Shown: in pieces, positions 42,532-42,812 of the stretch
How the letters are laid out: every line of letters begins with the position of its first letter
Numbering within the stretch: the first letter of the stretch is position 1
Assembly: GCF_044647545.1 (NCBI RefSeq)
Contig: NZ_CP172818.1
Direction: 5' to 3' (one strand)
Source: Escherichia coli
GTDB lineage: Bacteria > Pseudomonadota > Gammaproteobacteria > Enterobacterales > Enterobacteriaceae
DNA: 64,000 nucleotides
Made by a program: the position numbers and the translations under genes
The notes under the pieces: model-generated
What the model was told of the DNA's origin: nothing
Databases searched by the model: none
Seen by the model: the letters and a program-made list of their open reading frames with translations, nothing else

Positions 42532-42812
42532 AACCTTTGATAGTGGGTGGGATACGGTGAAGGACCCCCCTGAAGGAGGGGAAAAATTGGGGTTCGCGCC
42601 GGGTTGTAAAGAATAATTAAAAATGGAATGGAAAAAAAAGGGTTAGACCGGGTCGGAGAAATTTTCTTTTGGGGGGGTCACACACCCCCGTATTTTAAAT
42701 TCGACAAGGGGAAATCTCAATTTTTTATATATAAATAAATATAATATTATGGGCGCATATGGAGGTTCATATAATAAATATAAAAAATTAAAATACACAT
42801 AGGCTTTATAGT

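What the first reader, a model, noticed from the sequence alone, without database searches (positions are those of the whole stretch)
42535..42812. ORF-free low-complexity segment with homopolymer runs next to the toxin remnant
The roughly 280 bp after the toxin remnant contain no ORF of 60 aa or more in any frame, and carry G7 (42671-42677), C6 (42565-42570), A8 and short G-run/C-run hairpins (for example ggggg-N7-ccccc at 42673-42689 followed by gtatttt). It ends in a very AT-rich stretch (ttttttatatataaataaatataatattat) before the asmA terminator. The composition is unlike the flanking coding DNA. It could be a decayed antitoxin or mobile-element scar, a small structured RNA, or a sequencing or assembly artefact in homopolymers.
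Basis: seen in the sequence. Interest (0 to 1): 0.55.

Follow-up and report, generated by a model that had tools for sequence, protein, structure and literature searches.

The report
Corrupted copy of an antitoxin gene
The odd, homopolymer-rich 280 bases sit where an ordinary small antitoxin gene lies in related E. coli, and their sequence in this assembly was most likely corrupted by a poor read or a patching step, not by biology.

Summary
42535-42812 has no ORF of 60 aa or more, carries G7, C6 and A8 runs, and is the most homopolymer-rich stretch of the 64 kb (z about 6).

It is not a new element. It is collinear, to within 2 bp, with a 291-bp gene for a 96-aa HTH_37 antitoxin. In about 900 E. 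coli genomes that gene follows the same truncated Gp49/RelE-ParE toxin remnant between yegH and asmA.

The closest relatives (FDAARGOS_497 and others) differ from the window at 9 positions in about 55 kb. They differ at 98-116 positions within 42444-42819.

- The error rate climbs steadily from left to right (2, 6, 8, 22, 38, 46-48% per 50 nt). It then drops to zero at 42820, the foot of the asmA terminator.
- 66% of the substitutions copy a neighbouring base (null 44%, 0 of 5000 simulations). The first 17 all do.
- Substitutions fall almost evenly on the three codon positions.
- No other genome of the 5,426 searched carries the sequence.
- The window also shows signs of K-12-guided patching.

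The best reading is a sequencing or assembly artefact (confidence about 0.88). The RNA reading is rejected. Low interest.

The parts
42364..42531 (+). Remnant of a Gp49/RelE-ParE-family type II toxin gene (C-terminal 55 codons). Its last ~90 bases already carry the first 6 sequence errors.
   Evidence: Relatives annotate a 168-bp RelE/ParE pseudogene lacking its N-terminus. Pfam Gp49 PF05973, E=2.8e-15, on the relatives' version. tblastn to the window gives 92.7% identity, with differences only in the last third.
42521..42811 (+). The position of the 291-bp HTH_37 (HigA-like) antitoxin gene. In this window the start codon reads ATA, there are 3 in-frame stops and 4 single-base indels, so no ORF remains.
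   Evidence: Collinear alignment with L001 and L002. The intact protein WP_022645843.1 matches Pfam HTH_37 PF13744 at E=1.3e-21. Translations are. tblastn gives 32.6% identity over 92 aa, E=1.7e-11.
42444..42819 (.). The degraded stretch. It holds 98-116 differences from the closest relatives in 376 bases. The difference rate rises from left to right and ends abruptly.
   Evidence: There are 9 differences in about 55 kb outside this stretch and 98 inside it. Identity per 25 nt runs 25, 24, 24, 24, 23, 23, 21, 19, 15, 17, 10, 18, 11, 14, 14, 14, 14, then 24 and 25. 74 of 112 substitutions copy a flanking base, against a null of 48.8 +/- 5.8.
42820..42851 (-). Intrinsic terminator hairpin of asmA. 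Error-free sequence resumes exactly at its foot.
   Evidence: 13-bp stem followed by TTTTTATT. 100% identical to relatives from 42820 onward.
42358..42358 (.). An extra C relative to all relatives, placed exactly where homology to K-12 ends. It creates the spurious ATG-started 60-aa ORF at 42349-42531.
42165..42172 (.). The TACCCGAT junction. TA-bearing relatives carry 178 bp here, and the closest ones also carry an IS110-family element (1.57 kb in all). The window has the K-12-type junction without the insert.

Best explanation
The segment is a corrupted rendering of an ordinary gene, not a biological feature. The real locus, between yegH and asmA, holds a degenerate type II toxin-antitoxin module: a truncated Gp49/RelE-ParE toxin remnant followed by an intact 96-aa HTH_37 (HigA-like) antitoxin gene. 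In this assembly the sequence over that gene appears to come from a single low-quality, one-directional source that runs left to right. That source could be the unedited tail of one read, or a consensus extended from the left anchor with dwindling support. Base calls become steadily less reliable and tend to repeat the neighbouring base. This produces the G7, C6 and A8/A9 runs, the spurious hairpins and the A/T-rich tail. The bad stretch is then butted onto good sequence at the asmA terminator. Shown: the collinearity, the gradient, the neighbour-copy bias, the uniqueness of the sequence, and the independent signs that the window is a K-12-guided patchwork. Inferred: the technical cause. No reads were available.
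For: (1) The stretch is collinear with an intact antitoxin gene: 376 versus 378 bases and only 4 indel columns. (2) The differences are sharply localised. Against FDAARGOS_497 there are 9 differences in about 55 kb outside 42444-42819 and 98 inside it, a density about 1,600 times higher. (3) The gradient runs one way. Per 50 nt the difference rate is 0.02, 0.02, 0.06, 0.08, 0.22, 0.38, 0.46, 0.48 and 0.40, then zero from 42820. (4) 74 of 112 substitutions make the base equal to a neighbour. Random substitutions at the same sites give 48.8 +/- 5.8, a maximum of 68, and 0 of 5000 simulations reach 74. Only 23 of 112 replaced reference bases matched a neighbour. The first 17 substitutions all copy a neighbour. 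Mean run length is 1.79, against 1.36 in the intact allele. (5) There is no sign of selection. Differences by codon position are 33, 30 and 43, the start codon is lost, and there are 3 in-frame stops. (6) 6 of 7 sites that distinguish two natural alleles match the allele of the closest relatives, so the underlying template was that allele. (7) None of the 5,426 complete E. coli genomes matches the stretch above 72.8% over its full length. Its ORFs are absent from the gene index. (8) The window shows patching against K-12. Positions 4157-12911 are 100% K-12, including the IS5-disrupted wbbL, and the block edges lie within 8 bp and 2 bp of where homology to the relatives ends. All 4 other indels relative to the relatives sit at K-12 structural breakpoints. 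A 1.57-kb insert present in the closest relatives and absent in K-12 is missing. The degraded stretch lies inside an insertion relative to K-12.
Against: No reads, quality values or assembly method were available, so the artefact is inferred from pattern alone, and I could not identify the source assembly. Poor read tails usually contain more indels than the 4 seen here. The K-12 block could instead come from a real K-12 hybrid or transconjugant, which would remove one supporting argument, though it would not explain the indels at K-12 breakpoints. The absence of the exact 28-mer from metagenome contigs is weak evidence, because the intact allele has only one hit there.
Confidence: 0.88

Rival explanations
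1. The sequence is real: in this one lineage the orphan antitoxin gene has undergone rapid pseudogene decay or local hypermutation.
For: The adjacent toxin is already a remnant in every strain, so the antitoxin could be dispensable. The even spread of differences across codon positions fits neutral decay as well as it fits error. Length is conserved, with few indels.
Against: The lineage differs from its relatives at about 0.016% of positions elsewhere, against 26-30% here. Neutral decay cannot produce that contrast, a monotonic one-way gradient with an abrupt end at 42820, or the bias towards copying neighbouring bases. The gene is intact in the closest relatives that were examined. No known mutational process in E. 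coli gives this spectrum; the substitutions include all 12 types.
Confidence: 0.07
2. A divergent allele or foreign fragment was imported by recombination and replaced the antitoxin gene.
For: The locus is a hot spot for variation: K-12 has a REP element here, some strains have an IS110 element, and several antitoxin alleles exist.
Against: No donor-like sequence above 73% identity exists in the 5,426 genomes. An imported allele should be an ORF and should diverge uniformly with sharp edges on both sides; here identity decays gradually from 100%. Diagnostic sites match the local allele.
Confidence: 0.03
3. The segment encodes a small structured RNA or a regulatory element, such as the terminator-like GGGGG...CCCCC hairpin with its T-run.
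For: A terminator-like hairpin lies at 42673-42689 and there are two promoter-like matches.
Against: No Rfam family matches near its threshold; the best is a Plasmodium snoRNA model at 25 bits against a gathering score of 80. Folding is no better than shuffled sequence on either strand (z -0.54 and -0.46). Promoter and terminator counts equal the shuffle expectation. The hairpin arms are themselves made by the suspect substitutions: relatives read TAGGGGTCACTCAACCTCG.
Confidence: 0.02

Closest known systems
HTH_37 (PF13744) helix-turn-helix antitoxin gene WP_022645843.1, paired with a Gp49/RelE-ParE (HigB-like, PF05973) toxin remnant, in the yegH-asmA intergenic region of E. coli
   Same: Same position, orientation and length. 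Same toxin remnant upstream and same asmA terminator downstream. The first ~100 bases are 85-96% identical, and residual protein similarity gives E=1.7e-11.
   Different: The window has no ORF: the start codon reads ATA, there are 3 stops and there are frameshifts. Identity falls to about 50% at the 3' end.
Unedited low-quality read tail, or poorly supported consensus, left in a finished or reference-guided assembly (general knowledge of sequencing artefacts, not a database family)
   Same: A one-directional rise in error, miscalls that repeat the adjacent base and lengthen homopolymers, an abrupt return to perfect sequence at a join, and occurrence in one assembly only.
   Different: There are few indels for a read tail. 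The sequencing technology and assembly method are unknown, and no read-level evidence was available.

Membership tests
Type II toxin-antitoxin module, Gp49 (HigB-like) toxin with HTH_37 (HigA-like) antitoxin | Intact toxin ORF with a complete Gp49/RelE-ParE domain | tested here: not met
   Only model positions 47-90 of 90 are present. The gene is annotated as a pseudogene lacking its N-terminus in relatives, and it is also truncated in the window.
Type II toxin-antitoxin module, Gp49 (HigB-like) toxin with HTH_37 (HigA-like) antitoxin | Intact antitoxin ORF with an HTH_37 domain immediately downstream of, and overlapping, the toxin gene | tested here: not met
   This is met in relatives: a 96-aa protein with PF13744 at E=1.3e-21, overlapping the remnant by 11 bp. 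In the window the frame has ATA in place of ATG and 3 stops.
Type II toxin-antitoxin module, Gp49 (HigB-like) toxin with HTH_37 (HigA-like) antitoxin | DNA homology and synteny with the module in other E. coli | tested here: met
   Collinear alignment and the same flanking genes.
Any curated RNA family (Rfam 15) | Covariance-model score at or above the family's gathering threshold | tested here: not met
   The best match is 25 bits against a threshold of 80, and all E-values are 0.29 or higher.
Sequence or assembly artefact (low-quality single-direction source) | Errors confined to one short stretch in otherwise near-identical sequence, with a positional gradient | tested here: met
Sequence or assembly artefact (low-quality single-direction source) | An error spectrum typical of base-calling (the neighbouring base repeated, homopolymers lengthened) rather than of mutation | tested here: met
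   66% of substitutions copy a neighbour, against a null of 44%, with 0 of 5000 simulations reaching the observed count. Run length is 1.79 against 1.36.
Sequence or assembly artefact (low-quality single-direction source) | The sequence is not reproduced in independent genomes | tested here: met
   There is no match above 72.8% in 5,426 complete genomes. The exact 28-mer is absent from metagenome contigs, a weak test.
Sequence or assembly artefact (low-quality single-direction source) | Low coverage or low quality in the underlying reads | not testable with these tools
   No reads or quality values were available, and the source assembly was not identified.

The most novel reading that the evidence does not exclude
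The sequence is genuine and records a polar, processive hypermutation event. In this reading the event started near the end of the toxin remnant, became more intense over about 375 bp, stopped at the asmA terminator hairpin, and favoured dislocation-type substitutions that copy the adjacent base. That would be a natural targeted mutagenesis of an orphan antitoxin gene.
Probability: 0.03. Interest if true: 0.75.

Novelty: not a real feature. Interest (0 to 1): 0.05.

Why it matters
The stretch has little biological importance. It matters mainly as a quality flag: this stretch, and probably the O-antigen block and several junctions in the same window, should not be used for annotation, allele typing or pseudogene counts. 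Taken at face value, it would be wrongly scored as loss of an antitoxin gene, or as a novel intergenic element or sRNA. The real locus underneath is a known kind of thing: an orphan HTH antitoxin kept next to a truncated toxin in about 900 E. coli genomes.

Tried and rejected
- **RNA reading.** The Rfam scan at a permissive E-value gave only spurious eukaryotic and viral models. RNA folding of both strands was no better than shuffles. Promoter and terminator scans were at chance level apart from the real asmA terminator.
- **Independent copies.** An exact 28-mer from the degraded stretch gave 0 hits in metagenome contigs. The positive control with the intact allele gave only 1 contig, so this test has little power.
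- **Naming the source assembly.** Exact-protein look-ups of four ORFs from the stretch found nothing on record. A look-up of the RfbC at 12447-13004 found CP092700.1 and CP172817.1, but those loci are only 97.5-97.8% identical to the window, so neither is the source.
- **The junction at 42165.** I first suspected that the missing 1.57 kb was a private deletion or an assembly collapse. The same junction type is normal in K-12-like genomes that lack the TA remnant. The combination of that junction with the TA remnant was not seen in any sampled genome.
- **NCBIfam.** This gave nothing useful for the antitoxin or the remnant: one sub-threshold match to the Y4mF-family antitoxin model TIGR03070 'couple_hipB'.
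- **DGR-type mutagenesis.** I rejected this because the substitutions are not adenine-specific; all 12 types occur.

Full report
**Context.** The window is an E. coli chromosomal segment: his operon, O-antigen cluster, colanic-acid cluster (wza at 38768-39907), yegH (40500-42149, + strand), asmA (42862-44715, - strand), dcd, udk, and on to mdtABCD. The finding lies in the 712-bp yegH-asmA spacer.

**Observation.** No ORF of 60 aa or more overlaps 42535-42812.
- Mean homopolymer run length in the segment is 1.77, against 1.365 +/- 0.066 for all 278-nt windows of the 64 kb.
- 27% of bases lie in runs of 4 or more, against 6%.
- Only windows that overlap this spot reach those values.

The anomaly actually spans 42444-42819.

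**What normally lies here.** About 900 of 5,426 complete E. coli genomes match the start of the segment. All the matches listed annotate a 168-bp RelE/ParE-family toxin pseudogene lacking its N-terminus, followed by an intact 291-bp 'helix-turn-helix domain-containing protein' gene.
- The remnant matches Pfam Gp49 (PF05973) at E=2.8e-15, model positions 47-90 of 90.
- The 96-aa downstream protein matches HTH_37 (PF13744) at E=1.3e-21.

The real locus is therefore a degenerate HigB/HigA-like type II module that retains its antitoxin. K-12 lacks the module altogether and has a REP-like sequence instead.

**The window against that gene.** The window is collinear with the intact gene: 376 bases against 378, with four single-base indel columns. 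The reading frame is destroyed. ATG reads ATA, there are three in-frame stops, and only 32.6% amino-acid identity remains.

**Why this is not ordinary divergence.**
1. The closest genomes (FDAARGOS_497, MS6198, ECONIH1 and others) are 99.98-99.99% identical to the window over the roughly 55 kb they share. There are 9 differences outside 42444-42819 and 98 inside it by BLAST alignment, or 116 difference columns by MAFFT.
2. The differences form a one-way gradient. Per 50 nt from 42350 the rates are 0.02, 0.02, 0.06, 0.08, 0.22, 0.38, 0.46, 0.48 and 0.40. From 42820, the foot of the asmA terminator hairpin, identity is again 100%.
3. 74 of 112 substitutions turn a base into a copy of its neighbour. 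Random substitutions at the same sites give 48.8 +/- 5.8, and none of 5000 simulations reached 74. Only 23 of the 112 replaced bases matched a neighbour in the intact allele. The first 17 substitutions, where the alignment is unambiguous, are all of this kind, for example caaaaGaaaa to caaaaAaaaa, gagCgg to gagGgg and gacAcccc to gacCcccc. This is how the G7, C6, A8 and A9 runs, and the arms of the 'hairpin' at 42673-42689, arise. Relatives read TAGGGGTCACTCAACCTCG there.
4. Differences fall almost evenly on codon positions 1, 2 and 3 (33, 30 and 43). 6 of 7 sites that distinguish two natural alleles match the allele of the closest relatives. The underlying template was therefore the ordinary local allele.
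5. No complete genome matches the whole stretch above 72.8%, and none of its ORFs is on record in the gene index.

**Independent signs that the window is a patched assembly.**
- Positions 4157-12911 are 100% identical to K-12 MG1655. This is the O16 cluster, including the IS5-disrupted wbbL. The rest of the window is about 97% identical to K-12.
- The switch points are confined to 8 bp and 2 bp, and they coincide with the points where homology to FDAARGOS_497 ends and resumes (4164 and 12910). No RefSeq complete genome has either junction above 98% identity.
- All four indels that separate the window from FDAARGOS_497 outside the focal stretch (21324, 42358, 49733, 54020) lie within a few bases of K-12 structural breakpoints.
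- The 178 bp plus IS110 element that the closest relatives carry just after yegH is missing, as it is in K-12. The combination of the K-12-type junction with the TA remnant was not seen in any genome sampled.
- The degraded stretch lies inside 42360-42862, an insertion relative to K-12. Such a place is where a reference-assisted assembly would depend on a single gap-closing read or on a weakly supported extension.

**Rivals.**
- Real rapid decay or hypermutation cannot explain the roughly 1,600-fold local excess, the gradient, the abrupt end or the neighbour-copy bias.
- An imported divergent allele should be an ORF with uniform divergence and should have a donor somewhere. None of these holds.
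- A structured RNA is not supported. There is no Rfam match. Folding z-scores are -0.54 and -0.46. Promoter and terminator counts are at shuffle level apart from the true asmA terminator.

**Limits.** I had no reads and could not identify the source record. The technical cause is therefore inferred: a Sanger or flow-based read tail, or a consensus extended from the left anchor during reference-guided polishing. The metagenome test has little power. The K-12 block could in principle reflect a real K-12 hybrid, but that would not explain the indels at K-12 breakpoints.

**Verdict.** The stretch is a sequence or assembly artefact overlying a known, ordinary antitoxin gene (confidence about 0.88). 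It is not a real feature, and its interest is low except as a quality warning for this assembly.

Noticed in passing
window 4157-12911: The O16 O-antigen block (the promoter-proximal side of gnd through wbbL::IS5 to rfbC) is 100% identical to K-12 MG1655, with 0 differences in 8.75 kb. It sits inside a backbone that is about 97% identical to K-12 and 99.98% to ST167-like strains. The switch points lie within 8 bp and 2 bp of the edges of heterology with the relatives. This suggests K-12 reference fill-in, or a K-12 hybrid strain.
   Followed up: partly
window 21324, 42358, 49733, 54020: The only indels relative to FDAARGOS_497 outside the focal stretch (-C, +C, -TCC, -A) all sit at points where K-12 differs structurally from this strain. 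They look like junction errors from a reference-guided assembly.
   Followed up: partly
window 42165-42172: TA-bearing relatives carry 178 bp here, and the closest ones also carry an IS110-family element, 1.57 kb in all, flanked by a TACCCGAT direct repeat. The window has the insert-free, K-12-type junction. That combination with the TA remnant was not seen in any sampled RefSeq genome.
   Followed up: partly
window 42349-42531: The 60-aa ATG-started ORF that looks like a small toxin gene is created by the extra C at 42358. Its C-terminus (SEIDL, KKLVQEGKNKN) differs from relatives (SDIDL, KELVQERKNEN) only through the suspect substitutions.
   Followed up: yes
L001 1942-2389; L002 2385-2832 (relatives): In about 900 of 5,426 E. 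coli genomes an intact HTH_37 antitoxin gene sits beside a toxin gene that has lost its N-terminus. It appears to be an orphan antitoxin. Several alleles exist; for O157, UTI89 and most other matching genomes only the first 165 bases of the query aligned, at 80-82% identity.
   Followed up: partly
window 42166-42348: A GC-rich (up to 65%) segment shared with K-12, lying between yegH and the toxin remnant. It contains a strong inverted repeat (ccagggtggtggcgattgagccaccctgg). It has no Rfam match, and I did not look into its function.
   Followed up: no
window 55598-56199: Two tandem copies about 83% identical, corresponding to the known ibsA/ibsB (sib) type I toxin-antitoxin repeats between yegL and mdtA.
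   Followed up: no
window 12447-13004; L009, L010: The RfbC protein encoded across the K-12/backbone switch point is identical to proteins in CP092700.1 and CP172817.1 (strain HS-01). Those genomes have O16 regions only 97.5-97.8% identical to the window. They may be other K-12-related mosaics.
   Followed up: partly
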